45,213 nt of DNA from the UHGV virus genome UHGV-0383844, one strand, 5' to 3'. The notes under the pieces were generated by a model. That model saw only the letters and a program-made list of their open reading frames with translations. It searched no databases and was not told the DNA's origin. Source of the DNA: a virus. Below are positions 13,158-43,679 of the stretch, one piece after another (within the stretch, counting starts at the first letter, position 1; each line of letters begins with the position of its first letter). A program made the position numbers and the translations under genes.

Positions 13158-13170
13158 AGGAGAGAAAAAC

Positions 13171-14172: not shown

Positions 14173-14182
14173 GAGTAGAAGA

Positions 14183-14371
14183 ATGAATGAAGAGACAAAA
14201 CAAGAGCTTGAAGTGGTGCTGATGTTATTAAAGAATGTTTGCATTAAAAACGGTGTTTCTGCCGGATTTAACAAAGAAACAAGCGAACTGATTTTCTTTG
14301 ACACAAGAGTGTATCTTGAAACTGGTGGATTTAAAGGAATAAAAACAACGTTAGAAAATTTAGTGAAATAG
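14183..14371 (+). CDS. Hypothetical small protein (62 aa)
   Basis: ORF with RBS ggagtagaagaATG. Confidence 0.35.
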   Translation: MNEETKQELEVVLMLLKNVCIKNGVSAGFNKETSELIFFDTRVYLETGGFKGIKTTLENLVK

Positions 14372-14386
14372 AAAAGGAGAAGAAAA

Positions 14387-22332: not shown

Positions 22333-22522
22333 TTAGTAGCATATCACGGTAAATATTAAAAATCCGGAATGCCGTGGAAGTGCTACGGAGTGATATCACA
22401 AAACGCAGATATCCGCAGATCTGCAAAACAAACAAAAATAGATTCAGCAATCTATATTTAGTGTAATCAGCGTACCCGAGTGCTGCGGATAGGGTAAAGG
22501 ATGTCAATAAAAGGCATCCTAT

Positions 22523-22595
22523 GGGTGTATAGCTCAGTTGGTAGAGCGATCGGCTTTTAACCGACGTGTCGCAGGTTCGAATCCTGCTATACCCA
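22523..22595 (+). tRNA. tRNA-Lys (anticodon TTT), 73 nt, no encoded CCA
   Basis: manual cloverleaf: acceptor gggtgta/tataccc (one G-U), D-arm gctc-agttggta-gagc, anticodon loop cTTTTaa, T-arm gcagg-ttcgaat-cctgc, discriminator A; A27-C43 mismatch at top of anticodon stem. Confidence 0.85.
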
Positions 22596-22781
22596 TTGTG
22601 GACTACTGCAAAGTTTCCTCCTTTTTTTCTTATAAATTTTGATTGTGTATTTGGTTATTTTGGTTTTTGTTGGCGTTATTAATTCTTTCAGCAGTAGTCC
22701 TAAATATTAAAAAAGTATAAATTAGCACTAAAGTGTTGTGGCTGCTAATTATGTGTGTTATATTCAGTATATAATTAAGAG

Positions 22782-28006: not shown

Positions 28007-28197
28007 AGCTGAGATATATAGGGGAATCATTTGGAGTAGATTCTTTAACGAATGGAAAAATATATGAAGCAAGTGAAGAGTCTGGAATGTATCGTGTCAT
28101 TGATGACAGCGGAGAAGATTATTTGTATTCAAAAGAGAATCCGGCACCACTTGATGGCAGCAGTCCAGGTGGACGTTGGGAAATTGTAAAAGAGTAA
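28003..28197 (+). CDS. Small acidic hypothetical protein (64 aa) overlapping MuF stop (ATGA)
   Basis: translational coupling; candidate immunity partner of MuF C-terminal domain. Confidence 0.45.
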   Translation: MKLRYIGESFGVDSLTNGKIYEASEESGMYRVIDDSGEDYLYSKENPAPLDGSSPGGRWEIVKE

Positions 28198-28213
28198 TAC
28201 CATTTATTCTTAA

Positions 28214-29059
28214 TTGAGTGAGTGGTATTTTTTATATCAAAATAATAAATCAGCATCTATCCAGAGTGGTAGGTGCTATTTTTATACGCTTTCCTCAATT
28301 TTGGGGACAGTATTTGTCCGATCAACCCTCAAGACATTTAAACTGCGGGAAATATCCCCTGTGGCATGGGAGAATAACTGCCACGGCCGGCGGAGGCACC
28401 GCGATAATAAACAGTGGTCAAAGAAAGGAATAAAGATGCAGTTAAGAGACGTATTAGGAGAAGAGCTTTTCGGACAGGTAGATGCAAAGATTCAGGAACA
28501 CAACAACGGAATCGAGGATAAGCTGAAGCACGTCAGATTTGTGGATTTATCAGAGGGAGGCTATATCAGCAAGGAAAAGTACCAGAGCCTTGAGACGAGA
28601 GCCAATGGACTGGAGACACAGCTCGGTGAAGCAAACACTACAATCAAGTCCTACAAAGACATGGATATTGACGGAATCAAGCAGTCTGCCGCTGACTGGG
28701 AGAAAAAGTACAACGAAGACACGAAAGCGCTAAATGACCAGATTGAATCAGACAGAAAGATGTTTGCAGCAGAGCGGTTTTTGGATACTCAGAAGATTAA
28801 ATCTCCTTTATCCAGAAAGACAATCTTACATGAGTTTCTGGAACAGAAGATGGAGTTTAAAGATGGTGCTTTTGTTGGCGCAGATGAGTACATGAAAGGC
28901 GTCAAAGAGAAATACCCAGATGAGTTCGAACAGGAAGAACCGGATGGAGGAAAAAAGACGTGGGTAAGAGGAACTCATGGTACTTATAGACCGGAAACAA
29001 AATCCGAAGAAGAAGCTTACCTCTCAAGAAAATATGGAAACAACAAATATGCGAAATAG
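28214..29059 (+). CDS. Scaffolding protein (probable start ATG 28436)
   Basis: coiled-coil acidic protein between MuF and capsid; RBS aaagaaaggaataaagATG. Confidence 0.6.
   Translation: MSEWYFLYQNNKSASIQSGRCYFYTLSSILGTVFVRSTLKTFKLREISPVAWENNCHGRRRHRDNKQWSKKGIKMQLRDVLGEELFGQVDAKIQEHNNGIEDKLKHVRFVDLSEGGYISKEKYQSLETRANGLETQLGEANTTIKSYKDMDIDGIKQSAADWEKKYNEDTKALNDQIESDRKMFAAERFLDTQKIKSPLSRKTILHEFLEQKMEFKDGAFVGADEYMKGVKEKYPDEFEQEEPDGGKKTWVRGTHGTYRPETKSEEEAYLSRKYGNNKYAK
28252..28287 (+). terminator. Hairpin agcatcta-N10-taggtgct + atttttatac; homologous copy at 39398..39434
   Basis: 8-bp stem with one G-U; the second copy shows compensatory outer pairs. Confidence 0.45.
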
Positions 29060-30022: not shown

Positions 30023-30397
30023 ATGGCATATACACCAACTACATGGAATAATGATGACGTTATTACAGCAGAGAAACTGAATAAGTTAGAGCAGGGCGTG
30101 AAGAATGAGCAGGTAGGACCAGCAGGACCAGCAGGACCAGCAGGACCAGCAGGAGCAGCAGGAGCAAAAGGCGATCCAGGAGTAGCAGGACCGAAAGGCG
30201 ACAAGGGAGAACCGGGCGCACAGGGACCTGCAGGACCAAGTTACACTCTTCCAGCGGCGAATAAAACAACGCTCGGCGGTGTGAAACAGATGGCTTTGAT
30301 CGAAGATTTGTCCACAGAAACAGCAACTGACCTGAAAGATAAAATCAATGCGATTCTTGCGGGGATGAAAAAACAGGGGATCATGGCGAATTCGTAA
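30023..30397 (+). CDS. Collagen-like repeat protein (head fiber / decoration candidate)
   Basis: GPAGPAGPAGPAGAAGAKGDPGVAGPKGDKGEPGAQGPAGP; RBS ataggaggtataagttATG. Confidence 0.65.
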   Translation: MAYTPTTWNNDDVITAEKLNKLEQGVKNEQVGPAGPAGPAGPAGAAGAKGDPGVAGPKGDKGEPGAQGPAGPSYTLPAANKTTLGGVKQMALIEDLSTETATDLKDKINAILAGMKKQGIMANS

Positions 30398-32507: not shown

Positions 32508-32587
32508 TCCCCGCCGATAATGCCTTGGTTGGCGTGGGAGTAGTAGGTAAGGCGAGAATTGGAAAAGGAAGGAGCGCAAGAACATGA
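32495..32587 (+). other. -1 frame C-terminal extension of major tail protein (28 codons, SIIPADNALVGVGVVGKARIGKGRSART) entered at G_GGG_GGA, ending at TGA overlapping chaperone ATG
   Basis: open -1 frame read directly; peptide shares the (A)xVGxxxVGKA(K/R)(V/I)GK pattern with the capsid extension. Confidence 0.5.
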
Positions 32588-32937
32588 TTATCAATGGAGT
32601 AGAATTGGAATTCAACCTGTATGATCTGGAGAATCCAGAGCTGAAAGAGCGATATGGAGCTGAATTGGAGAAGATGAAACACGTTGCAGAAGAGCTGCCA
32701 GAAGGAACAGAGCTGGAACAGAATAGATTTCTGTGCGGCAGAGTGAAGCAGATGTTTGATTCTGTATTCGGAGAGGGTACAGGTAATCGTGTGTGTGGAA
32801 AAGGAAATGATTTGCTTGCTTGTATGACAGTTTATGAGCAGTTGGTCACAGAGCAGATCAGACAGGACAATCAGTACAATGAGATTATGGGAAGATTGGA
32901 AATGTTATCAAAGGGAAATGCTCTTGTAGAAAAATGA
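32584..32937 (+). CDS. Tail assembly chaperone (G-like)
   Basis: MIINGVELEFNLYDLE... typical TAC N-terminus; position between MTP and Gp15-like. Confidence 0.6.
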   Translation: MIINGVELEFNLYDLENPELKERYGAELEKMKHVAEELPEGTELEQNRFLCGRVKQMFDSVFGEGTGNRVCGKGNDLLACMTVYEQLVTEQIRQDNQYNEIMGRLEMLSKGNALVEK

Positions 32938-33560
32938 TGAATCTCTTAATAGAAAAATTTCCAGAGTTTTTGATCGTGAATGGTGTGGAGTGTCCTGTAA
33001 ACTGGGATTTCCGCACTGTTTTAAAATGCAATGAAATCATAGAAAGTGCAGAAGAATTGACGGGAGATTCCTTACTGAAAGTGTTGCTGCTGTTCTACAG
33101 AGATTGTGATTATTTCACAGAAGAACACGTGGATCAGATGTTTTGGTTCTTTTCCTGTGGCAAGGAGCAGTCAAAGAAGAAATTCCCGCGGAAGATTGCA
33201 GGGGTCAATGATAAGCAACCGTTTGACTTTCAAGAGGATGCGGGACTGATCTATGCCGGTTTCATCCAGCAGTACGGGATTGACTTGCAGACAGAAGAGA
33301 TGCACTGGTGGAAGTTTATGCTGCTTCTGGAAAATCTGGGAGAAGATACCAGGCTGTCAAAGGTCATTGAGTACCGGACAATGGATGTGTCGAATAAGAA
33401 TCTCTCAAAAGAGGAAAGGGAGTTTTACCGGGCAATGCAGAAGTATTACGGTCTGGAGCAGGCGCCGGCTATGGATGATCGGACAAGACAGATTGAAGAT
33501 GCGCTTCTCAATGGCGGCGATGTGAGTGAATTGCTTCGTCTGAAAAACGAACGAACGTAG
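32934..33560 (+). CDS. Tail assembly chaperone, bacteriophage Gp15-family (T-like); lies in -1 frame relative to upstream chaperone
   Basis: NGVECPVNWDFRTVLKC...LIYAGFIQQYGIDLQTEEMHWWKFMLLLENLGEDTRLSKVIEYR matches Gp15 family. Confidence 0.65.
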   Translation: MMNLLIEKFPEFLIVNGVECPVNWDFRTVLKCNEIIESAEELTGDSLLKVLLLFYRDCDYFTEEHVDQMFWFFSCGKEQSKKKFPRKIAGVNDKQPFDFQEDAGLIYAGFIQQYGIDLQTEEMHWWKFMLLLENLGEDTRLSKVIEYRTMDVSNKNLSKEEREFYRAMQKYYGLEQAPAMDDRTRQIEDALLNGGDVSELLRLKNERT

Positions 33561-33629
33561 AGAACGTGTGTAAAGGTGTGGCGAAATGCTGCACCTTATT
33601 TTAATACTTAAAAAACAGATAGTGTCAAA

Positions 33630-34319
33630 TTGACACTGACGAGATTCAGCGAAAGGATTGAAAATATGTTAGTAGAAGTAAAAAGAGTGAATAAAATGGA
33701 AATGACAGTTGTATCAAGTTTGGATGTATCAGATACATTTGACAAGAATCATCGAGATGTAATGGAGTCTATAAGGAATATAGAGTCTACTATAAGTACA
33801 GCGGAATTTTCCGCTCTATTTTATTTGGATTCTTACAAGGCATCCAATGGAAAAATGAATCCAATGTATCTTATGACAAGAGACGGCTTTACTCTTTTAG
33901 CAATGGGTTACACGGGGGCGAAAGCTATGAAGTTCAAACTTGCCTACATCAAGCAATTCAATGCTATGGAAAAAATCCTACAAGGCAAACTTGTTGAACG
34001 AGAAAAAGGAATTGCGGTCAGGCAATCACTTACAAAAGCACTGCAACAGTCCACAGAGAATGAGCGGATGCACGGACATGCTTACTCTACTTACACCAAC
34101 TGTATTTATAAAGTATTGTTCGGAGTAAATGCAAAGCAACTTCGTGAGAATCTTGGAATTGGAAAGAAGGACAATTTGAGAGACTATCTTTCGGTAGAAG
34201 ATTTAAAAGCAATTCAGTCAATGGAATGTTTGGTAAGTGGACTTGTAGATTGTGGATGGGGATATGATCAGATCAAGGAGTTTATACAGAAAAATAATAC
34301 AATGCAGATTGCAGCATAA
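33630..34319 (+). CDS. Rha-family phage regulatory protein (second Rha paralog; start possibly 33666 or 33696)
   Basis: MEMTVVSSLDVSDTFDKNHRDVMESIRNI...MYLMTRDGFTLLAMGYTGAKAMKFKLAYIKQFNAME = Phage_pRha. Confidence 0.7.
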   Translation: MTLTRFSERIENMLVEVKRVNKMEMTVVSSLDVSDTFDKNHRDVMESIRNIESTISTAEFSALFYLDSYKASNGKMNPMYLMTRDGFTLLAMGYTGAKAMKFKLAYIKQFNAMEKILQGKLVEREKGIAVRQSLTKALQQSTENERMHGHAYSTYTNCIYKVLFGVNAKQLRENLGIGKKDNLRDYLSVEDLKAIQSMECLVSGLVDCGWGYDQIKEFIQKNNTMQIAA

Positions 34320-34622
34320 TTATTTCCTGAATTGAGCGAGGGTTCAAATTGAGCACCCGTTAAAAAGGTGGTCTCAGGCTGTGACCACCTGTAATTGTAG
34401 TGGGCATGTCCATTATTGGACTCTCCTGTTTTGCGTACAAATGTGCGAAGAAAATAGAACTTGTCTATTTGGGATTCGGATCGTCTTTTATGACGAACCG
34501 TATATTTGTACCGACGAAATTCGTCATCACATGACGGAGCAAGAATGCGCTTTCCACAGTTGTGTGGAAAGAATTAGCCGAGCTCAAAATTGAGCCGGGC
34601 GATTTCTCGCTCCATTCCATCC

Positions 34623-34651
34623 TTGCGATTCCACAGTCCTCACGGTATAAT
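34623..34651 (+). promoter_or_regulatory. Sigma-A promoter TTGCGA-17-TATAAT for lipoprotein gene
   Basis: ttgcgattccacagtcctcacggtataat, ~38 nt upstream of ATG 34689. Confidence 0.5.
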
Positions 34652-34688
34652 GAGTATGTGGTAAAGCGTATAGGGTAGGAGGAAGGTT

Positions 34689-36107
34689 ATGAAGAGAGTA
34701 CTAAGTGTCTTGCTGGCAGCAGTGCTTTGTGTGGGGATGCTGACAGGATGCGGGGAGAAGAAGGATGCCGGTGAGGTGGAGAGCGTTGATTTTGATGAAT
34801 CTTCAAATATTTCTGTACAAATTAAAGATATGAAGTTTCAAGTTCCATCAAATTGGAATGAGTCTACAATAGAAAGTTTTGGGGAAGAGGAACAGGTTCG
34901 ATGTTTTAAGTCGGACGATGTCTATTTAAAAGTATTATATAACAAAAATGATATAGATAAATTGGATGATGATGCATACAAGAGTCATATAACAGAAATA
35001 ACTGGTTCACTCTATCCGTTTGCGATAAAGCGCATATATGATGAAAGTTATGGTGATATAAAAGCTAAAGTTGCGGATATTTCTTTTTATGAAAATGAGC
35101 GCCATTATGTTGGACATGTATTTACATTAGAACTTGGCGATTTCGTATTTGGAATTGATGAAAAAAGCGAAAAAAACTACGAACGTGACATGGAACTAAT
35201 TTTGCAATCAGCGCAAATTGTTAACGTAAAGAGTATATTAGAAGAATTGAAGGATGCAGGAATACCGATAGAATATGATATTATTTATACGGATGAAACC
35301 GATCCGAATGATTCAAATCACGAATATATAGAAAAAGGAAATTTTGCTGATTCAAGAATAGAAGAGGAATACTCAAAAGAAGAACCATTAAGCGGAACAA
35401 TAGAAATTTTCGATAGTAGTGATGCTGCCGTGGCAAGAGTTTATTATTTAGAATCATTGGACGCTCTTTCTCTTGATAGTTTCGCATACCGGATTGTATC
35501 TGAAAATGTTGTACTTCGTTTGAATGACAAATATTCAGAAGAGGAAATACAAGAATTTGCAGATATCTTGAATGGAGGGATCCGAAGCAAAGCAAAAAGT
35601 GATTATGAAGATTTAACAGAAGAGTTGGAAAATCCATCAGCTATTCAGACAGGATATCAAACCGGAATGTACAAAATAGGTACAGACATGCCAGCTGGAG
35701 AATATCTTATCACATCTTCTGGCGGCTATTATGCAGTGACAGCCGATTCCAGCGGAAGTTTGGAATCAATCATCAGCAATGACAATTATAGGAATAGAGC
35801 CTATGTTACAGTACAAGACGGACAGTATTTCCAGTTTGATGGAACGGCAGTTCCCGTCAGTGAGGCGGCTGCATTCACTCCGGTTAATGGTACATATCCA
35901 GATGGAATGTATCTTGTAGGAAAGGATATTCCGACAGGAGAGTATAAAGTATCTGCTACGAATGGTGGATATTATGAGGTTACAGCCAACTCAACAGGAG
36001 ATTTAGGAACTATAATTTCAAATGACAACTTCGATGGAGAAGTGTATTTGACAGTACAAGATGGACAGTATTTAAAATTGAGCAGAGCGCAGATTGTTGT
36101 GCAGTAA
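34689..36107 (+). CDS. Lipoprotein (472 aa; lipobox LTGC) with two tandem ~75-aa C-terminal repeat domains
   Basis: MKRVLSVLLAAVLCVGMLTGCG; repeats MYKIGTDMPAGEYLITSSGGYYAVTADSSGSLESIISNDN... and MYLVGKDIPTGEYKVSATNGGYYEVTANSTGDLGTIISNDN... Confidence 0.8.
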   Translation: MKRVLSVLLAAVLCVGMLTGCGEKKDAGEVESVDFDESSNISVQIKDMKFQVPSNWNESTIESFGEEEQVRCFKSDDVYLKVLYNKNDIDKLDDDAYKSHITEITGSLYPFAIKRIYDESYGDIKAKVADISFYENERHYVGHVFTLELGDFVFGIDEKSEKNYERDMELILQSAQIVNVKSILEELKDAGIPIEYDIIYTDETDPNDSNHEYIEKGNFADSRIEEEYSKEEPLSGTIEIFDSSDAAVARVYYLESLDALSLDSFAYRIVSENVVLRLNDKYSEEEIQEFADILNGGIRSKAKSDYEDLTEELENPSAIQTGYQTGMYKIGTDMPAGEYLITSSGGYYAVTADSSGSLESIISNDNYRNRAYVTVQDGQYFQFDGTAVPVSEAAAFTPVNGTYPDGMYLVGKDIPTGEYKVSATNGGYYEVTANSTGDLGTIISNDNFDGEVYLTVQDGQYLKLSRAQIVVQ

Positions 36108-36114
36108 GATAGAA

Positions 36115-36140
36115 ACCACTTACTTCGGTAGGTGGTTTTT
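36115..36140 (+). terminator. Intrinsic terminator accacttac-ttcg-gtaggtggt + ttttt
   Basis: 9-bp stem (one G-U), TTCG loop, T5. Confidence 0.6.
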
Positions 36141-36174
36141 GAATAGGTAATATAGGTGATGAAGGTTGTTTCCC

Positions 36175-36203
36175 TTGCCTTTCTGCGTACACGTAGGTAT
36201 AAT
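36175..36203 (+). promoter_or_regulatory. Sigma-A promoter TTGCCT-17-TATAAT for SHOCT-domain gene
   Basis: ttgcctttctgcgtacacgtaggtataat read directly. Confidence 0.5.
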
Positions 36204-36244
36204 CAAAACGTGGTGTAAAAGAAAAGACATAGGAGGGAAAAGGA

Positions 36245-36727
36245 ATGGGATTGGTAGATCATAGCGAATCAATTACGGTACCATACTCACCAGAAAATGC
36301 ATATAGGGCGTTAGTGATTGGATGTACTAAACTGAACGAAGATGAGTTTGTGCTGGAAAAAATTGATGATAACATAAGGACTGTTTATTTGAAAGGTAGA
36401 CTTAGTTTGTTTTCCTGGGGAGAGACAATAACGGTATCAATTTCTAATACCAGTACAGGAGAAGCCGAGGTTAAGATATCTTCTACACCAAAAACAGGAG
36501 CCGCTTTTGGTGGAATTATGGATATGGGGAAAAATAAGAAAAACATAGAGAAGATCATGTCTGTGTTATCGGAAGAATTAAGTGATTACCCACAGCATAT
36601 TCCACAAGAAAATCAAAAAAATGCTTCAGTTATAGATGAGATAAAAGAATATGCAAAATTGATGCAAGAAGGACTTATCACAGAAGAGGAATACAATCAA
36701 AAAAAGAAACAGCTATTAGGAATTTAA
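36245..36727 (+). CDS. SHOCT-domain protein (unknown beta-rich N-domain + C-terminal SHOCT)
   Basis: C-terminus IDEIKEYAKLMQEGLITEEEYNQKKKQLLGI = SHOCT consensus. Confidence 0.6.
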   Translation: MGLVDHSESITVPYSPENAYRALVIGCTKLNEDEFVLEKIDDNIRTVYLKGRLSLFSWGETITVSISNTSTGEAEVKISSTPKTGAAFGGIMDMGKNKKNIEKIMSVLSEELSDYPQHIPQENQKNASVIDEIKEYAKLMQEGLITEEEYNQKKKQLLGI

Positions 36728-36733
36728 AAGATG

Positions 36734-36760
36734 CCACCTGCATAAGTAGGTGGTTTTCTT
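36734..36760 (+). terminator. Intrinsic terminator ccacct-gcataagt-aggtgg + ttttctt
   Basis: hairpin + T-run right after stop. Confidence 0.6.
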
Positions 36761-36785
36761 ATACCCAATTTTAAGGAGAACATAG

Positions 36786-36899
36786 ATGAAGTTAATTGAA
36801 TATCGGGGAGGAGTCCTTTCAGGGTATGCTCCTGATCTCCCTGGAAAGAACAGAAAGACATGGCGAAATGCTGTGTCTTATTTTAATTCCATAAGGTAG
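36786..36899 (+). CDS. Tiny ORF (37 aa) with AAGGAG RBS
   Basis: taaggagaacatagATG; uncertain. Confidence 0.2.
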   Translation: MKLIEYRGGVLSGYAPDLPGKNRKTWRNAVSYFNSIR

Positions 36900-36923
36900 G
36901 GTGGAAAAATTTTGAAAAACCTC

Positions 36924-36988
36924 TTGACATCTTGCTATACGATTGTTATATTAAATGTGTAACCATTAAATAAATAATTGTGTAACCA
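36924..36988 (+). promoter_or_regulatory. Sigma-A promoter TTGACA-17-TATATT followed by two direct repeats TGTGTAACCA (about 36956 and 36979) before the RHH gene RBS
   Basis: read directly; direct-repeat operators typical of RHH autoregulators. Confidence 0.5.
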
Positions 36989-37003
36989 GAAAGGAGAAGC
37001 GAG

Positions 37004-37195
37004 ATGTCACCAGCAAAAGGGAGGCCGCCGTCAAAGAATCCGAAAAATATTGACACGAGGATAAGACTATCAGAGCAAGAAGCGAATATGCTGGAGTTTT
37101 GCAGTAGTAAAACCGGATTAACAAAGGCGGACATCATAAGAAGAGGTATTAAGAAAATTTATGATGAAATCGTACTTGACAAATTCAAACAATAG
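37004..37195 (+). CDS. Ribbon-helix-helix (CopG-like) DNA-binding protein
   Basis: TRIRLSEQEANMLEFCSSKTGLTKADIIRRGIKKIYDEI = beta-strand + two helices pattern; RBS gaaaggagaagcgagATG. Confidence 0.55.
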   Translation: MSPAKGRPPSKNPKNIDTRIRLSEQEANMLEFCSSKTGLTKADIIRRGIKKIYDEIVLDKFKQ

Positions 37196-37290
37196 AAAAA
37201 AGAGATTCGCCCACCTACCAAGTTTAACGAATCTCTAATGAAAAACACAACGGAAAGGTTGTGCTATTTATAATATAACACATCCTTTTC

Positions 37291-37989
37291 GTGAAATCAA
37301 TGAAAAGGAGAAATTTTATGTACAATTTCTATGTATTAGATGGAAAGAAACTGATCGATTACAAGCCGAAAAGAGAACACTATGCAAGAGCGCTTGAGCG
37401 AATTACAGATGCAAATGGCAGTTATGATTTAGAAAGACTCTGGCAGGAAAGACCGGATCAATTCAAACAAATATTATACCTGTCCATTAAATTTATTGAA
37501 CATGTTTTTGACAATAATTCTGACTGCTCTCAAGAGGAAACACAATCGTGGTTCTTCATTGTAGAATTTATCAATCAGATGGTTGCAAAAATCACACCGA
37601 GACAGTTCATGGAGATATTTCCTATTGCCAAGGACTATGATGGTGAAAAATATGGGTGTAAAGATTATTTCTACACCAAAGACTATATGGCACGTTTGGG
37701 ATATGATGCACCTATCGGAGAGGAAAAAGCCAGCGAGTTTTTACTGGAGTACTGGAATCCTCACATTATGAAATACGCAATTCATTGGATGGGAATCATC
37801 AATCAGATGCACCGTCTAAATGGTGGACGTGATATTTTCGTAGAATTTATGGAAGAACAAGGTCTTTCCTTCCCTACTTATCATAAGGAAGGGAATTATC
37901 TGGTGAATAGCAAAACAGGGGAGAGGCATAAAGTTCAGAAGCCGAAAAGAAGATTGAGAAAATTGTTTAGTGTAGTTTCAAATAAGTAG
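37291..37989 (+). CDS. Hypothetical protein (probable start ATG 37318), partner of RHH gene
   Basis: RBS aaaaggagaaattttATG; no family recognised. Confidence 0.5.
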   Translation: MKSMKRRNFMYNFYVLDGKKLIDYKPKREHYARALERITDANGSYDLERLWQERPDQFKQILYLSIKFIEHVFDNNSDCSQEETQSWFFIVEFINQMVAKITPRQFMEIFPIAKDYDGEKYGCKDYFYTKDYMARLGYDAPIGEEKASEFLLEYWNPHIMKYAIHWMGIINQMHRLNGGRDIFVEFMEEQGLSFPTYHKEGNYLVNSKTGERHKVQKPKRRLRKLFSVVSNK

Positions 37990-38001
37990 GAGGAATCGAT
38001 C

Positions 38002-38817
38002 ATGGAAAATAAAGTACAAGTATTTAATAATAAGGAATTGGAATTACAAGTAAGAACGTTGCCGAATCCAGATGGAAGTATTTCCATTAGTGCGGAAGAT
38101 GCTGCAATCGGATTCGGATGGTATCAAAAAAAGAATGGAAAAGTGTACCCAAGATGGGAAACTTTAAACGGTTATTGCAAAGACATTGGATTTTCCCAAC
38201 TTGTTGGGAAAGATGATTACATTCCAGAATCACTGTTTTATCGTCTCGGAATGAAGGCGAGCAATCCAGCAGCTGAAAAATTTCAAAACTGGCTTGCGCT
38301 GGATGTTATTCCATCTATAAGAAAGACAGGTTCTTACGAAATGCCAAAGAAGAAACCTGCCCACAAAGAAAAACTCCCATCCGTCAACCAGATGGTGAAG
38401 AACATCAAAGGTGCTCTCAATGATGCAGGAGTAGATTCTAAGTACATAGCTGCTGAAATTATCCGTATTTATTCAGACAACGGGTATCCAGTGAAAGTGC
38501 CGCTGATTTCAGAAGTTCCGGTCTTGTGGGATTGTACTACGATGGCGAAAGAGTTTGGTATTTTATCGGAAAGTGGCAGACCACACGATAAGGCAGTAAG
38601 TGCTATCATTCAGAAGTTGGATGTTTCAGAGGACGAAATTGTAAAGACAGCTTATAGCAGGAATGGACATGACGGTGTTACTGTTCAATATAAAGATTCT
38701 GTTTTCCAGAAAGTAAAAGAATGGCTGAAGGAAAATGGATATCCCACACTCATTGAGCATCGGTTATCAAATGGTAATACAAATAAATGCAAAGTTGTAT
38801 ATCAGGAGGTGGCGTAG
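38002..38817 (+). CDS. BRO-N domain protein (phage antirepressor-like), third Rha/Bro-type paralog
   Basis: N-terminus ENKVQVFNNKELELQVRTLPNPDGSISISAEDAAIGFGW resembles Bro-N. Confidence 0.65.
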   Translation: MENKVQVFNNKELELQVRTLPNPDGSISISAEDAAIGFGWYQKKNGKVYPRWETLNGYCKDIGFSQLVGKDDYIPESLFYRLGMKASNPAAEKFQNWLALDVIPSIRKTGSYEMPKKKPAHKEKLPSVNQMVKNIKGALNDAGVDSKYIAAEIIRIYSDNGYPVKVPLISEVPVLWDCTTMAKEFGILSESGRPHDKAVSAIIQKLDVSEDEIVKTAYSRNGHDGVTVQYKDSVFQKVKEWLKENGYPTLIEHRLSNGNTNKCKVVYQEVA

Positions 38818-39238
38818 GATGAATTTATATGAAAAAATTAAGAGAGAAAACTTGATGATCCCTGTTGCATTTAGAATGAAATTTGAACAGGCAGAAGATT
38901 TGTTGAACCATGCTCCCGGCGACTTTGAGCTTGCGTTATCATCATTTAGATTTGGCTATATGCAAGGGCAGAGAGCAGAAAAAGCGAACAATACTAAAGC
39001 GGAAAATAATCAGTTTCAGAGCCTCTTGTCGCAGTTAAGACCGGAAGATTATAGAATTAAACGCCAGATAGAAGCAATCTTATACAGGTATTTGGATAAA
39101 CGTGACAGACTTCCAGATACAGAGCAGTGTGATCGTAAGAAATCCATTGTGAAGATTGTGGAGAATATGGAAAATGAAGAGTGTTTGGAACTTGTAGAAC
39201 GGTTCGCTAAAAATCTGGCAAGTAGTGAGGTGGCGTAA
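38735..39238 (+). CDS. Hypothetical protein (probable start ATG 38820)
   Basis: ORF; ATGA-type coupling to next small ORF. Confidence 0.45.
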   Translation: MDIPHSLSIGYQMVIQINAKLYIRRWRRMNLYEKIKRENLMIPVAFRMKFEQAEDLLNHAPGDFELALSSFRFGYMQGQRAEKANNTKAENNQFQSLLSQLRPEDYRIKRQIEAILYRYLDKRDRLPDTEQCDRKKSIVKIVENMENEECLELVERFAKNLASSEVA

Positions 39239-39381
39239 TGAAAGAGAATAGAGAGAAATTAAGCACAGCGGCTAAATATAAGAAGAACTTCATTATCAGC
39301 AAGCTGAAAGAAATGGACGAATGTCATATAAATCGCGTATATGCCTTTATGCAAGGCTGTACTGGAAATTCGGTCAAATAA
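39238..39381 (+). CDS. Tiny ORF (47 aa)
   Basis: TAATG overlap with upstream ORF. Confidence 0.2.
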   Translation: MKENREKLSTAAKYKKNFIISKLKEMDECHINRVYAFMQGCTGNSVK

Positions 39382-39397
39382 CTAAATACAGTAATCA

Positions 39398-39434
39398 GGG
39401 CATCTATCAGAAATGGTAGGTGCTCTTTTTATAC
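39398..39434 (+). terminator. Hairpin gggcatcta-N10-taggtgctc + tttttatac (homolog of 28252..28287), 28 nt upstream of tape-measure ATG
   Basis: aligned to first copy; compensatory outer base pairs. Confidence 0.45.
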
Positions 39435-39461
39435 AAATTTTTAACATGAGGTGGTGAGTAA

Positions 39462-42400
39462 ATGGCAGATGGAAAAGTTGTAATTGAAACAGATCTGGAT
39501 TCTTCCGGGATAGAAAAAGGACTTTCAAAGCTTGGGAGTATAACAGCAAAAGGGATGAAAGCGGCAACGGTAGCGATCACGGGAACTGCAGCAGCACTTG
39601 GTGGAGTTGCAGCAGCGGCAATCAAGGTGGGTTCTGATTTTGAATCTCAGATGTCTAGAGTTAAGGCTATCTCCGGAGCAACAGGAGAAGAGTTTGAGCA
39701 ATTAAAGGAACAGGCAATGCAGTTAGGTGCTGATACCTCGTTTTCTGCCAGTCAGGCAGCAGAGGGAATGGAGAATCTGGCAGCAGCTGGTTTTACTACA
39801 TCCGAGATTATGAGTGCAATGCCGGGACTTTTAAATCTGGCAGCGGCATCCGGTGAAGATCTGGCGAGCAGTTCGGATATTGCAGCATCAACGTTAAGAG
39901 GATTTGGACTGGCGGCATCCGATGCAGCACACGTTGCGGATGTTCTGGCGGCGAATGCAAACCGTACGAATTCCTCTGTAGCAGATACCGGAGAGGCAAT
40001 GAAGTATATAGCTCCTCTTGCAAGGGCAGCAGGACTTAGTTTGGAAGAGACAGCAGCGGCAATCGGAATCATGGCGAATGCCGGAGTGAATGGCAGTCAG
40101 GCTGGTACTTCTTTAAGAGGAGCGTTATCACGGCTTTCAAAGCCAACGAAAGACATGTCTGAGGCTATGGATGAACTTGGAATTTCCTTCTACGATTCCA
40201 ACGGTAAAATGAAGTCTCTGACGGAACAGGTTGGAATGCTCAGACAGGCAACGGAAGGAATGACAGATGAGCAGAAAAACAATTATCTGGTCACTCTGTA
40301 TGGACAAGAAGCATTGTCCGGTATGCTGGCATTGATCAATGAGGGTGAGGGATCTCTCGGTGAACTGACAGAGGCATACAGGAGTTGTGATGGTGAAGCA
40401 CAAAAGGCAGCAGAAACAATGCAGGACAATCTATCTGGTGCGTTGGAGCAGCTCAGTGGATCAGCAGAAACATTGGGTCTGGCGTTTTATAACAGTGTTG
40501 CAGACAATCTGAAAAATGCAGCAAATACGGCAACAGAAAGCATCAACAATATCACGGATTCTTTCAATAACGGTGGTCTGAATGAAGCAATACAGACAGC
40601 CGGTGATGAATTTGCCAATCTTGCAGTGGAAGCAGCATCCCACGCACCAAAAATGGTGGATACAGCAGTGGATTTCATAGAATCCTTTGCTTCTGGAATT
40701 GCTTCGAACAAAGGAAGGATTCTCGGTGCGGCCGGAGAGATGGCGGAGTCTATGGCATCCGGTCTGGCAGAGCTGTTACCATCCAAACTGCAAGAGCCGG
40801 TTGAGGATGCAATTGATGCAGTGGCAGAGTCATTGAGTGATGGTGGATTAAAAGAAGCAGCAGAGACAGCAGCGGACACATTGGATAATGTAGTGGATGC
40901 TGTTGGAAATCTGGCTGATAAAGCGCTTCCGCCATTGACAAAGGCACTGGACTTTGCAGGAGAGAATCTGGACTTGATCGCAGCATCAGCAACGGCGGCT
41001 TTTACCGCATTTAAAGGATATAAAGTTGTCAATGAAACAACATCTATATTAAAAAAAGGTGTGAAAACATGGAAGACCGCTTCTGCAGCAGTGGATGCTT
41101 ACTATGCTGCACAGCTTCTGGCTATGGAAAGTGGTGTTGCAACAAACGCTACACTTACAGCGGGGCAAGCAGTTGTTGGCATGTTTACAGGAAAGGTGAA
41201 TTTAGCCACAAAAGCACAAACTCTTTGGAACGTTGCTATGAAAGCGAATCCGATTGGTCTTGTGATTTCTGCAGTAGCAGCTCTGGCAGCAGGTCTTAGC
41301 GTTTATGCTTTGACGCAGAAAGAAGCGGAGTCTGCTACAGATAAAGCCAATAAAAAACTGGCAGAACAGGCAGAAGCAATCCGAGAAACTCAGGCTGCAA
41401 GACAAGAGGAAGTTGCCGGAATTCAGACGCAGTTTGGTTATTATCAGCAACTATGGGATGAGTTGCAGGGAATTGTTGACCAAAATGGAAAGATAATGGA
41501 AGGGCAAGAGGAACGCGCAGCCTTTATTACATCCACATTATCCGAAGCGCTTGGCGTAGAGATTGAAACGACAGATGGCGTGATACAGAAGTATGGTGAG
41601 TTAACGCAATCCATTGATGAGGTCATCCGGAAGAAAAAAGCAGAAGCAATATTATTGGCTTACGAAGATGACTTTAATGAAGCGGTTAAAAAACAGGCAG
41701 AAGCAGAGGATGAATTAGCCAGAGCATACAATGATTATATCGAAGTTAGGAAAAGGGCTAAGCAAGCAACAGATGAACTTAGAGAAGCGGAATCTTCTAT
41801 GACTGCGGAACAAGCCGCGGGATCTTTTGAAATTATGCGACTCCAACAGGCGCAGATGGAAGCGAATGAAGAATTAGAAAAAGCTAAGAAAGCGTTTGAT
41901 GATGCTAAGATTGCTTATGACGAATACACGGCTGTTATTGCAAATTATGAAGCTGCAATGGGAGCAGCAGAAGCTGGAACAGCCAATATGGAAGCTGCAA
42001 TCAAAGCACTGACAGACGGTTTGATACGATCTACTGGAGAAAATGAAGCAGAACTTTCTAAACAGGTGCAGACTTGGCAACAAAAATATGAAGAAATGCG
42101 CCTTGCAGCAGAGGATGGTAATTCAGGTATCACTCAGACGATGGTAGACGGCAGTCGAGCAATGTGGCTCATGGCTCAAATCGAGTACGAAAAGGGGACT
42201 ACCAATAACACAGCTCAGATTGAAGCTTGGCAAAATGAAATCAATCAATTACTCGGAAACTCAGGCAATCCAGAAGCAGCAGCCCAAGAAGCGAAAGAAA
42301 CCACAGAAGCTGCAACGAACGCTTTACAAGAGGGAAAAGAACCAGTGAAGCAAGCAGCAAAAGACACTATCGAGGGTGGCGTCAGTGAGGGAGCGGCAGA

Positions 42401-43679
42401 GGCAGATACTTCTACGGTTCCTGCTCAAAAAGGAAAAGAGGCGGCGGATAGTACCGCAAATTCTGTAAACAGTGGAAAAACTGCGATCAATGAAGCAGCG
42501 AAAAGTGCTGTGAGTGAGATCAACACAGGAGCAAGTGCTACAGATACAACAACGATTCCTTCCAGCAAAGGAAGTGAGGCAACGCAGTCTCTGATTGATG
42601 CACTGTATGCGAATTCCAATGCCGTATTGATGGCAGCTGCTTCATTAGGCGGTCAGATTCCACAAGGGTTGAATGGCATGGATATGTTGTCAGCTACGGC
42701 AGGATTTGGAAACAACGTAGGTTTTGGACTATCATCCTCTTTGAGTGGCCAAGCCCCGGTTGTGCAGGCGGCTGCATCAGGATTGGAAAATGCGGCTTTA
42801 TCAGGACTTTCATCTGCAAATGTTTCGGGACAAGCGCAGGCAATGGGAAGTCAGATTGCAAACGCGCTTGCAAATGGAATTGTTGGTGGTTCTGGATCAG
42901 TAAATGCGGCGGCATCTACATTAGGCGGCAATGCAGCGGTGGCATTGTCAAATGTCAAGCTTTCCGAAAAAGGAAAACAGGAAGGAAAGAAACTTGGTGA
43001 TGGTTTAAAGAGCGGGATTGATTCTGGCAAGAAAAATGCGGAGTCATCTGCCAAAAGTCTTGGAGACGGAGCTGTATCCGGTTTAAGTAGCGTTGGAATG
43101 AGAAGCAAAGCGTACGATCAAGGATTGAATTTTTCCTATGGTCTTGCAAATGGTATTTCGGCTGGAAGCTCCGCGGCTATTTCCGCAGCTATCGCAGTTG
43201 CTTCTTCTGCACTGGCAGCAGCGAAAAGGGAACTTGATGAGCGTTCTCCATCCAAAAAGACAAGGGAATTTGGTCAATTCTTCAGTAAAGGTCTGGCGTT
43301 GGGTATTAAGGATGAAGAAAAGTCAGTTGTAAAATCTTCCCGAAATATTTCAAACGCAGCACTGGAATCTATTGATCTGTCCGCTGTTTCAGCACGGATG
43401 CGAGAGGTCATGGCTTTTAATGCATCCAGAGTGGCAAATCGTCCAGCAACATCTGTTATGCAGTACAAGATGGATAACGCAGAAATCAGAAAGCTTCAGC
43501 AGCAGAATCAGGCGATTATGAGTGCAGTGGCAGGACTTTCTGATCTGGCAAAACGTCCGATCGAAGTAAGCACAACACTGAATGGAAGAGAATTAATTAA
43601 AGAAACAGCAGCTCCAATGCTGACAGAACAGCAAAGAATTACAGATTTTAAGAAATTACTGAAAGGAGAACGTACATGA
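39462..43679 (+). CDS. Tail tape measure protein (TP901-type)
   Basis: 1405 aa; Ala/Gly-rich with coiled-coil middle; N-terminal TMP motif GAD...SFSASQAAEGMENLAAAGF; RBS gaggtggtgagtaaATG. Confidence 0.9.
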   Translation: MADGKVVIETDLDSSGIEKGLSKLGSITAKGMKAATVAITGTAAALGGVAAAAIKVGSDFESQMSRVKAISGATGEEFEQLKEQAMQLGADTSFSASQAAEGMENLAAAGFTTSEIMSAMPGLLNLAAASGEDLASSSDIAASTLRGFGLAASDAAHVADVLAANANRTNSSVADTGEAMKYIAPLARAAGLSLEETAAAIGIMANAGVNGSQAGTSLRGALSRLSKPTKDMSEAMDELGISFYDSNGKMKSLTEQVGMLRQATEGMTDEQKNNYLVTLYGQEALSGMLALINEGEGSLGELTEAYRSCDGEAQKAAETMQDNLSGALEQLSGSAETLGLAFYNSVADNLKNAANTATESINNITDSFNNGGLNEAIQTAGDEFANLAVEAASHAPKMVDTAVDFIESFASGIASNKGRILGAAGEMAESMASGLAELLPSKLQEPVEDAIDAVAESLSDGGLKEAAETAADTLDNVVDAVGNLADKALPPLTKALDFAGENLDLIAASATAAFTAFKGYKVVNETTSILKKGVKTWKTASAAVDAYYAAQLLAMESGVATNATLTAGQAVVGMFTGKVNLATKAQTLWNVAMKANPIGLVISAVAALAAGLSVYALTQKEAESATDKANKKLAEQAEAIRETQAARQEEVAGIQTQFGYYQQLWDELQGIVDQNGKIMEGQEERAAFITSTLSEALGVEIETTDGVIQKYGELTQSIDEVIRKKKAEAILLAYEDDFNEAVKKQAEAEDELARAYNDYIEVRKRAKQATDELREAESSMTAEQAAGSFEIMRLQQAQMEANEELEKAKKAFDDAKIAYDEYTAVIANYEAAMGAAEAGTANMEAAIKALTDGLIRSTGENEAELSKQVQTWQQKYEEMRLAAEDGNSGITQTMVDGSRAMWLMAQIEYEKGTTNNTAQIEAWQNEINQLLGNSGNPEAAAQEAKETTEAATNALQEGKEPVKQAAKDTIEGGVSEGAAEADTSTVPAQKGKEAADSTANSVNSGKTAINEAAKSAVSEINTGASATDTTTIPSSKGSEATQSLIDALYANSNAVLMAAASLGGQIPQGLNGMDMLSATAGFGNNVGFGLSSSLSGQAPVVQAAASGLENAALSGLSSANVSGQAQAMGSQIANALANGIVGGSGSVNAAASTLGGNAAVALSNVKLSEKGKQEGKKLGDGLKSGIDSGKKNAESSAKSLGDGAVSGLSSVGMRSKAYDQGLNFSYGLANGISAGSSAAISAAIAVASSALAAAKRELDERSPSKKTREFGQFFSKGLALGIKDEEKSVVKSSRNISNAALESIDLSAVSARMREVMAFNASRVANRPATSVMQYKMDNAEIRKLQQQNQAIMSAVAGLSDLAKRPIEVSTTLNGRELIKETAAPMLTEQQRITDFKKLLKGERT

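What the first reader, a model, noticed from the sequence alone, without database searches (positions are those of the whole stretch)
33561..39461. 5.9 kb cargo (moron) island inserted between the tail assembly chaperones and the tape measure gene
In siphophages the Gp15-type chaperone is normally followed directly by TMP. Here at least eight genes intervene: a Rha paralog, a 472-aa lipoprotein, a SHOCT-domain protein, an RHH regulator plus a 224-aa partner, a BRO-N protein, two unknowns and tiny ORFs. Three of them carry their own TTGNNN-17-TATAAT sigma-A promoters and intrinsic terminators (classic promoter-gene-terminator morons), so they should be expressed from the repressed prophage. A terminator-like hairpin duplicated from the head region (39398..39434) closes the island just before TMP. 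A secreted lipoprotein plus regulators in this position suggests superinfection exclusion, abortive infection or host-interaction functions; the combination is not one I recognise as a described system.
Basis: partly seen in the sequence, partly recalled or inferred. Interest (0 to 1): 0.7.

Follow-up and report, generated by a model that had tools for sequence, protein, structure and literature searches.

The report
Variable moron island before tape-measure gene
A 5.9-kb block of accessory genes (a surface lipoprotein, a SHOCT protein, and a small-repressor/antirepressor-like operon) sits between the tail chaperone and tape-measure genes of a gut Lachnospiraceae prophage; it is real and highly shuffled among relatives, but it is the same kind of thing as the classic HK97 "moron" and the P22 sieA-immI region.

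Summary
All eight genes, three sigma-A-like promoters, the terminators and the duplicated hairpin are at the stated coordinates.

Comparative evidence shows the block is cargo:
- About 30 phages with 61-68% identical Gp15 have Gp15 0-27 nt from TMP.
- All 17 close relatives (94-99% Gp15) carry a 2.1-6.7 kb insert there, in about 15 different gene arrangements.
- GC is 37.7% against 44-46% in the flanks.

Cassettes are exchanged at conserved linkers:
- two hairpin families that keep their pairing through compensatory changes;
- a promoter plus signal-peptide block shared by at least four unrelated lipoprotein bodies;
- a promoter whose -35 is shared while the regulator and its operator repeats are swapped together.

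Every insert of 1 kb or more encodes a lipoprotein. The minimal form is promoter, lipoprotein, hairpin B, TMP.

Best reading: an accretion of morons at one hotspot. It holds lysogen-expressed envelope proteins (superinfection-exclusion candidates) and an autoregulated, immI-like regulator/Ant-type operon. Function is inferred, not shown.

The position matches HK97 gene 15, and the combination matches P22 sieA-mnt-arc-ant. It is therefore a new member of a known kind, built from uncharacterised protein families.

The parts
32584..33560 (+). Left flank: tail assembly chaperone pair, DUF6673 (32584-32937) and Gp15 (32934-33560)
   Evidence: Pfam PF20378 1.2e-26 and PF06854 2.9e-42. Conserved in all 61 related loci.
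33573..33605 (+). Hairpin A plus AUUUUAAU tail. It is the left junction of the island, 12 nt after the Gp15 stop.
   Evidence: dG -14.6. Present at this place in all 17 close relatives. 98.6% of cells paired, 3 pairs with compensatory double changes. Similarity to relatives that carry the alternative first gene ends at 33613.
33621..33637 (.). 17-bp palindrome AGTGTCAAATTGACACT upstream of Rha; candidate regulator-binding site
   Evidence: Unique in the window; 0.24 expected by chance at up to 3 mismatches. Function not tested.
33666..34319 (+). Rha-family regulator: Rha N-domain plus a DinD/PDC-like C-domain (217 aa from the ATG; the ORF opens at TTG 33630). No sigma-A-like promoter of its own.
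   Evidence: Pfam Phage_pRha 3.9e-28, phrog_2657 3e-66, TIGR02681. C-terminal region matches PADLOC candidates PDC-M59A/S22/S13 at 1e-5 to 3e-8. Replaced by a Bro-N protein in 10 relatives.
34623..34651 (+). Promoter-like site P1 (TTGCGA-17-TATAAT), 37 nt upstream of the lipoprotein start
   Evidence: It lies in a block (34531/34598 to 34753-34784) kept at 87-97% nt identity upstream of lipoprotein genes whose mature parts are unrelated.
34689..36107 (+). 472-aa lipoprotein. Lipobox LTGC with Cys21; PsbP/Mog1/DcrB-like N-domain; middle domain; two C-terminal Rv1352-like (PF27111) beta-sandwich domains.
   Evidence: AF2 pLDDT 84.8. Foldseek against PDB gives PsbP at E 3e-5. NCBIfam NF053833 2.7e-18. 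BFVD top hits are phage lipoproteins. Homologs P0005 and P0023 sit in the same Gp15-TMP hotspot in other phages.
36110..36145 (+). Intrinsic terminator T1 after the lipoprotein gene
   Evidence: 14-bp stem, dG -16.8, U5 tract (D14, 55). Recurrent recombination breakpoint at 36115/36139.
36175..36203 (+). Promoter-like site P2 (TTGCCT-17-TATAAT) upstream of the SHOCT gene
   Evidence: The -10 and the sequence after it (TATAATCAAAACGTGGTGT) resemble the promoter of the single-gene lipoprotein moron in L031.
36245..36727 (+). 160-aa protein: uncharacterised N-domain plus C-terminal SHOCT domain
   Evidence: PF09851 1.8e-7. Among the 17 close relatives it is found only in L041. A 45%-identical homolog is a single opposite-strand gene between TMP and Dit in an unrelated siphophage.
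36733..36761 (+). Intrinsic terminator T2 after the SHOCT gene
   Evidence: dG -17.5.
36786..36899 (+). 37-codon ORF remnant (MKLIEYRGGVLSGYAPDLPG...), reminiscent of a HicB N-terminus by eye only; it contains hairpin A' (36855-36879).
   Evidence: sequence. Longer versions occur in L005 and L013 and in L086 just before TMP. Hairpin A' precedes the regulator operon in 13 relatives. No Pfam hit.
36924..36988 (+). Promoter-like site P3 (TTGACA-17-TG-TATATT, 11/12) followed by two direct repeats TGTGTAACCA (36956, 36979); candidate operator of the RHH protein
   Evidence: The repeat occurs only at these two places in the window (0.10 expected). In relatives, similarity stops exactly at the -35, and each regulator allele brings its own repeat (ACGCGTAAC; GTACGTAC).
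37004..37195 (+). 63-aa RHH-like small regulator, followed by two hairpins (37201-37263)
   Evidence: phrog_876 'transcriptional repressor' 1.3e-14. The four best Pfam hits are all RHH-fold families but sub-threshold. Hairpins.
37318..37989 (+). 223-aa all-alpha protein of an uncharacterised family (phrog_6329); the ORF opens at GTG 37291
38002..38817 (+). 271-aa Bro-N / Ant-like protein
   Evidence: phrog_2011 'anti-repressor Ant' 4e-37; Bro-N 2e-4, below the curated cut-off. Present in 15 of 17 close relatives and in L026, with N-terminal halves exchanged at 38263-38346.
38819..39381 (+). Two small unknown proteins: 139 aa (38819-39238; ORF opens at 38735) and 47 aa (39238-39381)
   Evidence: No family hits. 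Alternative alleles C8 and C11 in relatives.
39397..39434 (+). Hairpin B plus U5 tract. It is the right junction of the island, 27 nt before the TMP start.
   Evidence: dG -18.2. 86% identical to 28253-28287. Closes the Gp15-TMP insert in all 17 close relatives and in the five 1150-nt single-gene inserts of distant relatives (L028 and L031-L033, L037); one further copy in L051 lies next to a BRO gene about 9 kb downstream of Gp15, outside that gap. 95.8% of cells paired, 2 compensatory pairs.
39462..43679 (+). Right flank: tape measure protein (1405 aa)
28252..28287 (+). Head-region copy of hairpin B, between the minor head protein/64-aa ORF and the scaffold gene
   Evidence: In L062 this same head-region position holds an Ant + phrog_6329 island.

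Best explanation
The region is a recombination hotspot for accessory genes (morons) inside the tail operon of a family of temperate siphophages of gut Lachnospiraceae. It was built by adding and swapping cassettes.

Shown by sequence comparison: the ancestral state is Gp15 abutting TMP. The minimal insert is a sigma-A-type promoter, a lipoprotein gene and terminator hairpin B. Larger islands add further units. Cassettes are exchanged by homologous recombination at short conserved linkers: hairpins A/A'/B, terminators, the shared promoter plus signal-peptide block, and the -35 of P3.

Inferred: in the lysogen the host RNA polymerase transcribes the lipoprotein (P1 to T1) and the SHOCT protein (P2 to T2) as independent units. 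Hairpin B stops transcripts from running into TMP. The lipoprotein is anchored on the outer face of the membrane. Its most likely role is superinfection exclusion, by interfering with adsorption or DNA entry of competing phages.

Also inferred: P3 drives an operon of RHH regulator, phrog_6329 protein, Bro/Ant-like protein and two small proteins. The RHH protein probably represses it by binding the TGTGTAACCA repeats. This is functionally analogous to P22 immI (arc/mnt-ant). During lytic growth, late transcripts must read through at least five terminator-like hairpins to reach TMP.
For: Accessory status:
- The Gp15-TMP gap is 0-27 nt in about 30 relatives, and 2.1-6.7 kb in all 17 close relatives plus the window, with about 15 arrangements among 18 genomes.
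- GC is 37.7% against 43.7% and 45.7% in the flanks.

Cassette junctions:
- Recurrent breakpoints fall at 33613, 34531-34614, 34753-34784, 36115, 36727-36746, 36929, 38263-38346 and 39378.
- Hairpins A and B are conserved with compensatory changes.

Autonomous units:
- The three best + strand promoter matches downstream of 23.2 kb lie in island spacers.
- The terminators have dG of -12.6 to -18.2.
- The minimal moron in L031 is TTGTCT-17-TATAAT, a lipoprotein gene, hairpin B, then TMP.
- A SHOCT homolog is encoded on the opposite strand next to TMP in another phage, so it needs its own promoter there.

Lipoprotein as core cargo:
- All 23 inserts of 1 kb or more encode one.
- Lipoprotein homologs sit in the same hotspot in further phages.
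- The domains recur in phage lipoproteins, including one annotated 'host cell surface-exposed lipoprotein'.

Regulator module:
- Three regulator alleles each come with their own repeated operator.
- The repeat is unique to P3 in the window.
- The architecture [Ant-like]-[lipoprotein]-[small regulator]-[Ant-like]-[small ORFs] recurs with different alleles in L026, L083 and L084.

Precedents: HK97 gene 15 and P22 sieA-immI.
Against: - There are no expression data. Promoter matches are consensus hits, and their count alone is not significant.
- No island protein matches a characterised exclusion or defence family. There are no PADLOC system hits, no Ltp or YebO domain and no sequence relatives in the PDB.
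- The PsbP-like fold is a generic lipoprotein fold.
- Lipoprotein type is not linked to TMP allele: near-identical TMPs (97-99%) occur with lipoprotein types C15, C18 or C5. The adjacency to TMP therefore need not be functional.
- Rha has no recognisable promoter and may be a late gene.
- The late regulator is sigma-like (Sigma70_r4), not a known antiterminator. How TMP is transcribed through five hairpins is unexplained.
Confidence: 0.7

Rival explanations
1. The lysogen-expressed envelope proteins (lipoprotein, SHOCT protein) are lysogenic-conversion factors. On this reading they benefit the host in the gut (adhesion, surface remodelling, nutrient or stress functions) and are not anti-phage.
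For: Rv1352-like C-terminal domains occur in many non-phage surface proteins alongside SLH, Ig and FN3 domains. PsbP/LpqN/DcrB-like folds are general envelope lipoprotein folds. Morons are known to have diverse host-benefit roles (PMC3594210).
Against: Unrelated mature domains are swapped behind one conserved promoter and signal peptide among near-identical phages. That pattern fits an arms-race locus better than a housekeeping benefit. All full-length homologs examined are prophage-borne at this same hotspot.
Confidence: 0.3
2. The island mainly serves the lytic cycle. It would be transcribed with the late operon. The lipoprotein would mask receptors on lysing cells and debris to protect progeny, as T5 Llp does. 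The Rha/Bro proteins would act late, for example to induce or disarm co-resident prophages or defences.
For: All genes are co-oriented with the late operon. Rha lacks its own promoter. Late transcripts must traverse the island to reach TMP. The phage already has an early Ant (11070-11828) and a second lipoprotein in the classical lysogeny-module position (9184-9714).
Against: Strong sigma-A-like promoters and terminators bracket individual genes. An autoregulated promoter with operator repeats is also present. These features would be unnecessary for purely late expression. A SHOCT homolog is antisense to the late operon elsewhere.
Confidence: 0.25
3. The RHH protein and the 223-aa partner form a toxin-antitoxin or abortive-infection pair.
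For: A small RHH gene lies upstream of a larger unknown gene under an autoregulated promoter. Islands of relatives carry a PBECR2 RNase-toxin-like gene.
Against: Homologs of the partner occur without an RHH gene and instead always sit next to Ant-type genes. It has no similarity to any toxin family or fold. In L002, L006 and L007 the regulator slot precedes BRO directly, without the partner.
Confidence: 0.12
4. The genes are conserved virion-assembly components, or the block is one discrete mobile element (transposon or satellite) inserted in a single event.
For: The location is inside the tail operon.
Against: The block is absent from about 30 relatives that have intact tail modules. No two cassette sets are alike in most close relatives. 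There is no recombinase or transposase gene, and no flanking direct repeats were seen at the junctions read by eye. Breakpoints are internal and multiple.
Confidence: 0.03

Closest known systems
HK97 gene 15 moron (Juhala et al. 2000; Cumby et al. 2012; PMC3594210)
   Same: [quoted passage not shown] Promoter-gene-terminator unit. GC differs from the neighbours. Absent from close relatives. The product is an envelope protein. Exclusion in HK97 depends on the incoming phage's tail/TMP.
   Different: HK97 has one small inner-membrane protein of the YebO family in a Gram-negative host. Here there is a 5.9-kb multi-cassette island in a Firmicutes phage with a 472-aa lipoprotein and no sequence relation to gp15. 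Function here is untested.
[quoted passage not shown]
   Same: A highly variable accessory segment inside the late operon, largely expressed independently of the late message. It combines an envelope exclusion protein with small RHH repressors that control an antirepressor from an operator-bearing promoter.
   Different: The protein families differ: Bro-N/Rha-type instead of P22_AR_N Ant; the RHH-like protein is not detectably Arc or Mnt; a lipoprotein replaces the SieA inner-membrane protein. There is an extra partner protein (phrog_6329). It sits before TMP in a siphophage rather than before the tailspike of a podophage.
Ltp superinfection-exclusion lipoprotein of S. thermophilus phage TP-J34 (PMC3952083; Bebeacua et al. 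2013, as cited there)
   Same: A prophage-encoded, surface-exposed lipoprotein of a Gram-positive host, regarded as a moron. Ltp blocks DNA injection and targets TMP.
   Different: There is no Ltp (PF07553) domain in the 472-aa protein. The folds differ: PsbP-like plus Rv1352-like beta domains. Ltp lies in the lysogeny module, whereas this gene lies next to TMP. In this window the lysogeny-module position is occupied by a different lipoprotein (DUF5067, 9184-9714).
Other defence morons in late operons of Pseudomonas phages: Tab (JBD26, between the terminase genes; PMC10884400) and P-FimU (between the tail tube and tail assembly chaperone genes; PMC12952977)
   Same: Constitutively expressed prophage genes embedded in morphogenesis operons that protect against competing phages. 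Tab acts through TMP.
   Different: No homology. These are single small genes, whereas this is a shuffled multi-gene island.

Membership tests
Moron (sensu Juhala/Hendrix) | Extra DNA present in one phage and absent between the same two genes in related phages | tested here: met
   Gap of 0-27 nt in about 30 relatives against 5901 nt here.
Moron (sensu Juhala/Hendrix) | Own promoter upstream of the gene | tested here: inconclusive
   Matches of 10-11/12 to the sigma-70 consensus lie 35-50 nt upstream of three genes and are conserved in relatives. Activity is not tested, and Rha has none.
Moron (sensu Juhala/Hendrix) | Own factor-independent terminator downstream | tested here: met
   T1, T2 and hairpin B have dG of -16.8 to -18.2 with U tracts. 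Pairing is kept by compensatory changes. This is sequence-level evidence only.
Moron (sensu Juhala/Hendrix) | Base composition differs from the surrounding genes | tested here: met
   37.7% against 43.7% and 45.7% GC.
Moron (sensu Juhala/Hendrix) | Expressed from the repressed prophage | not testable with these tools
   Needs RNA-seq or reporter assays in a lysogen.
Ltp-type Sie lipoproteins (PF07553) | Ltp HTH-repeat domain | tested here: not met
   No PF07553 hit at E <= 0.01 for the 472-aa protein or for six alternative lipoproteins of relatives.
Ltp-type Sie lipoproteins (PF07553) | Lipoprotein signal peptide with lipobox | tested here: met
   MKRVLSVLLAAVLCVGMLTG|C, read directly from the translation.
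HK97 gp15 / YebO family | Sequence homology to YebO/gp15 | tested here: not met
   No such Pfam, NCBIfam or PHROG hit for any island protein.
P22 immI-type secondary immunity region | Small RHH repressor(s) controlling the antirepressor promoter through operators | tested here: inconclusive
   phrog_876 repressor 1.3e-14. RHH Pfam hits are only sub-threshold. Allele-specific repeats at P3 fit an operator. Binding is untested.
P22 immI-type secondary immunity region | Antirepressor of the P22 Ant family (P22_AR_N/P22_AR_C) that inactivates the prophage repressor | tested here: not met
   The protein is Bro-N/phrog_2011, not P22_AR_N. Antirepressor activity is not testable here.
P22 immI-type secondary immunity region | Located in a variable segment inside the late operon | tested here: met
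   compared with PMC8022706.
Type II toxin-antitoxin (RHH antitoxin + toxin) | Obligate pairing of the antitoxin with a recognisable toxin | tested here: not met
   The partner has no toxin-family or fold match. Its homologs occur without an RHH gene.
Known anti-phage defence systems (PADLOC-DB) | Match to a system component model | tested here: not met
   Only the Rha C-terminal region matches candidate (PDC) models. There are no hits for the lipoprotein, SHOCT, RHH, partner or BRO proteins.

The most novel reading that the evidence does not exclude
The Gp15-TMP hotspot of these gut Lachnospiraceae phages could encode a new, polymorphic family of superinfection-exclusion lipoproteins. These have one conserved promoter and signal peptide, with interchangeable PsbP-like, Rv1352-like and other mature domains. 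They would be coupled to an immI-like switch in which a large uncharacterised protein family (phrog_6329, about 800 clusters at 50% identity) is an obligate partner of Bro/Ant-type antirepressors.
Probability: 0.3. Interest if true: 0.55.

Novelty: new member of a known kind. Interest (0 to 1): 0.4.

Why it matters
Temperate phages of Lachnospiraceae are abundant in the human gut and almost unstudied experimentally.

This locus offers a ready-made natural experiment. Near-identical phages differ mainly in which lipoprotein, regulator allele and Ant-type genes they carry at one site. It also nominates concrete candidates for prophage-mediated exclusion in these bacteria.

It shows that the moron position first seen in HK97, and the pairing of an exclusion gene with an antirepressor region seen in P22, recur in distant Gram-positive siphophages. 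The linker architecture explains how cargo is shuffled. Conceptually it extends known biology and does not overturn it.

Tried and rejected
- blastn of the island against GenBank phages found only distant TMP, Rha and Bro matches and no close relative.
- Rfam found only a tRNA.
- PADLOC found no system.
- PDB sequence searches of the lipoprotein, partner, SHOCT, BRO and RHH proteins gave nothing meaningful.
- Linkage between lipoprotein type and TMP allele, as expected for a self-compatibility model, is absent: near-identical TMPs occur with lipoprotein types C15, C18 or C5.
- Hairpin B as part of a sigma-A promoter for TMP: there is no -35 or -10 fit, and only 27 nt lie before the start codon.
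- The 36760-36900 element as a larger structured RNA: z = -1.6, only the hairpin folds.
- The head-region hairpin site as a second large hotspot: in close relatives it shows only an allelic swap of the minor-head-protein C-terminus and the 64-aa ORF. In L062 it does hold an Ant island.
- The GTDB genome scan found only the 61-68% lineage, in Faecalimonas, [Ruminococcus] torques, Mediterraneibacter and Lachnoclostridium. The exact host of this window is therefore not identified.

Full report
**1. What is there**

The window is a temperate siphophage integrated in a bacterial genome. It has:
- a serine integrase at 7471-9003 (-);
- CI-like repressors;
- an early Ant/Rha protein at 11070-11828;
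- RecE/RecT, SSB, RusA and DnaD;
- a sigma-like late regulator at 21753-22166;
- then terminase, head and tail genes on the + strand.

- Rha;
- a 472-aa lipoprotein;
- a 160-aa SHOCT protein;
- a 63-aa RHH-like protein;
- a 223/232-aa partner (phrog_6329);
- a 271-aa Bro-N/Ant-like protein;
- a 139/167-aa unknown;
- a 47-aa unknown.

The island has 37.7% GC against 43.7% upstream and 45.7% downstream.

**2. Is it an insertion?**

Gp15 was used to fetch 61 related loci from IMG/VR. In about 30 loci whose Gp15 is 61-68% identical, the Gp15 stop and the TMP start are 0-27 nt apart. Four loci have 184-240 nt. Five have a 1150-nt insert with a single gene. One (L026) has 4.6 kb.

All 17 loci with 94-99% identical Gp15 have an insert of 2.1-6.7 kb. 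Clustering the encoded proteins gives about 15 different arrangements among 18 genomes. The flanking chaperone, tail-tube, TMP and Dit genes stay 90-100% identical.

The block is therefore dispensable cargo in a recombination hotspot, not an assembly module. Relatives in genomes come from Lachnospiraceae: Faecalimonas, [Ruminococcus] torques, Mediterraneibacter and Lachnoclostridium.

**3. Anatomy of the hotspot**

blastn of the window against the close relatives shows the same breakpoints again and again. They coincide with regulatory elements.

(a) Hairpin A (33573-33597) follows Gp15 in all close relatives. A sister copy, A' (36855-36879), precedes the regulator operon. The two differ by three fully compensatory base-pair changes. 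Across seven distinct variants, 98.6% of cells pair.

(b) Hairpin B (39397-39426 plus U5) closes every island 27 nt before TMP. That includes the single-gene inserts of the distant lineage, with G-C to A-U compensation. A copy sits before the scaffold gene at 28252-28277.

(c) A block of about 150-220 nt contains promoter-like site P1 (34623-34651) and the first 22-32 codons (the signal peptide MKRVLSVLLAAVLCVGMLTGC). It is conserved upstream of lipoprotein genes whose mature parts are unrelated: C15 (472 aa), C13 (368 aa), C18 (270 aa) and C19 (121 aa).

(d) The block 36727-36929 holds T2, hairpin A' and the -35 of P3. It is shared, and similarity stops exactly at the -35. Downstream, each regulator allele carries its own repeated motif around or after the -10:
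- TGTGTAACC x2 with the 63-aa RHH-like protein;
- ACGCGTAAC x2 with a 48-aa protein;
- GTACGTAC-type repeats with a 43%-identical RHH variant.

In the window TGTGTAACCA occurs only at 36956 and 36979.

Predicted hairpin energies are -12.6 to -18.2 kcal/mol. Terminator-like sites are three-fold enriched in 28-45 kb.

**4. Promoters**

The consensus scan does not find more sites than shuffles do. Only nine + strand sites reach 10/12 in the whole window. Three of them sit in island spacers at the right distance from the lipoprotein, SHOCT and RHH starts.

The distant single-gene insert (L031) reads Gp15 stop, TTGTCT-17-TATAAT, RBS, lipoprotein, hairpin B, TMP. That is a textbook moron. Its -10 region resembles the window's P2.

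A 45%-identical SHOCT homolog is encoded alone on the opposite strand between TMP and Dit of an unrelated siphophage. That gene family therefore travels as a self-expressed unit.

Rha has no such promoter. It is preceded by a unique 17-bp palindrome.

**5. The cargo**

*Lipoprotein.* Every insert of 1 kb or more in the set encodes at least one lipoprotein.

The AF2 model (pLDDT 84.8) has four parts:
- a PsbP/Mog1/DcrB/LpqN-like N-domain (Foldseek E 3e-5);
- a middle alpha/beta domain;
- two C-terminal beta-sandwich domains of the Rv1352/PF27111 type.

The best viral structural matches are phage lipoproteins. One is annotated 'host cell surface-exposed lipoprotein', and others come from mycobacteriophages. 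Homologs at 50% identity (P0005) and a C-domain homolog (P0023, seen in 81 data blocks) occupy the same Gp15-TMP site in other phages. P0023 is preceded by Rha.

There is no Ltp domain, no YebO homology, no PADLOC hit and no PDB sequence relative.

*Partner protein (phrog_6329).* The family has 817 clusters at 50% identity. It is all-alpha (pLDDT 79.8), with no fold or domain match.

In other phages its homologs always lie beside Ant-type genes in islands at other late-operon sites:
- between the minor capsid protein and the scaffold in L062;
- after a 1502-aa, presumably tape-measure, protein in L064-L066.

*Other cargo in relatives.* Their islands add a PBECR2 RNase-toxin-like gene, a Bro-N alternative to Rha, and HTH regulators.

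*Recurring order.* The order [Ant-like]-[lipoprotein]-[small regulator]-[Ant-like]-[small ORFs] recurs with different alleles in L026, L083 and L084.

**6. Mechanism**

*Shown:* the ancestral adjacency, the accessory nature, the cassette structure, and the conservation of hairpins and linkers.

*Inferred:*
- sigma-A transcription of the lipoprotein and SHOCT units in the lysogen;
- autorepression of P3 by the RHH-like protein;
- termination at hairpin B, shielding TMP from lysogenic transcripts;
- exclusion of competing phages by the surface lipoprotein;
- an antirepressor-type role for Bro/Rha.

*Unexplained:* how late transcripts pass five terminator-like hairpins when the only recognisable late regulator is sigma-like.

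**7. Comparison with what is known**

The term 'moron' was coined for HK97 gene 15. That gene lies between the tail assembly chaperone and TMP, has its own promoter and terminator, and excludes superinfecting phages (PMC3594210).

P22 carries sieA together with mnt, arc (RHH repressors) and ant in a very variable segment inside its late operon. [quoted passage not shown]

Ltp of TP-J34 is a surface lipoprotein that targets TMP (PMC3952083). Tab and P-FimU are further defence morons in morphogenesis operons.

The present island therefore works like these. It shares none of their protein families, and membership in each was tested and not met.

**8. Verdict**

This is a new member of a known kind. 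Its value lies in an unusually clear cassette architecture and in several uncharacterised, widespread protein families.

Interest is 0.4.

Noticed in passing
window 9184-9714 (-): A second prophage lipoprotein: signal MKKKIVAMLLVGAMTLSITAC, DUF5067 2.4e-29. It lies between the integrase and the repressor, which is the position Ltp-type exclusion genes occupy in S. thermophilus phages.
   Followed up: partly
window 36786-36899; L005 13237-13395; L086 about 8250-8360: A small ORF or remnant (MKLIEYRGGVLSGYAPDLPG...), reminiscent of a HicB N-terminus by eye only. It always ends in the A'-type hairpin. It is conserved across distant phages, and in L086 it directly precedes TMP. There is no Pfam hit, and the RNA is not unusually structured beyond the hairpin (z = -1.6).
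   Followed up: partly
window 33558-33611: The Gp15 stop codon TAG is in frame with the stretch that contains hairpin A (RTCVKVWRNAAPYFNT*). Its peptide resembles the end of the small ORF at 36786-36899 (KTWRNAVSYFNS). This may be coincidence, or it may be read-through or a remnant.
   Followed up: no
L004, L011, L012, L014, L016, L041 (e.g. L004 11559-12215): Islands of relatives carry a PBECR2 (phage-Barnase-EndoU-ColicinE5/D-RelE-like) nuclease gene (Pfam 6e-11) followed by an 81-aa ORF. It is inserted between window-equivalent positions 34448 and 34580. This is a possible toxin/immunity cassette.
   Followed up: partly
L007, L008, L015, L041 (e.g. L007 15523-15774): These relatives have an in-frame insertion of about 240 nt after codon 21 of TMP, immediately downstream of hairpin B.
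   Followed up: no
window 27730-28197 and 28196-28287: In 11 of the 17 close relatives the C-terminal 90 aa of the minor head protein and the 64-aa ORF 28003-28197 are replaced by another allele. The site carries two terminator-like hairpins. In L062 the equivalent site holds an HTH/Ant/phrog_6329 island.
   Followed up: partly
L051 18780-19760: A BRO gene with hairpin B lies about 9 kb downstream of Gp15 (beyond TMP), while Gp15 and TMP are adjacent. The same cassette therefore uses a different late-operon site.
   Followed up: no
window 34320-34600: A 370-nt non-coding spacer lies between Rha and the lipoprotein promoter. It has near-repeats TCAAATTGAGC / TCAAAATTGAGCC at its ends and a GGTGGTC...GACCACC hairpin. 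Its middle part (34448-34580) is a cassette insertion point in relatives.
   Followed up: no
window 22522-22596; 18387-19271; 30023-30397: A tRNA-Lys(UUU) lies upstream of the terminase region. There is a PAPS-reductase-like gene. A 124-aa protein has collagen-like GPAGPAG repeats after the major capsid gene.
   Followed up: no
L064-L066 about 8000-15000: Another phage group has an island of about 8 kb after a 1502-aa, presumably tape-measure, protein. It carries four Ant-type genes (P22_AR_N/ORF6C, Rha/ORF6C, Bro-N), a SNIPE/T5orf172 nuclease, an HNH endonuclease, an RHH gene and the phrog_6329 homolog.
   Followed up: no
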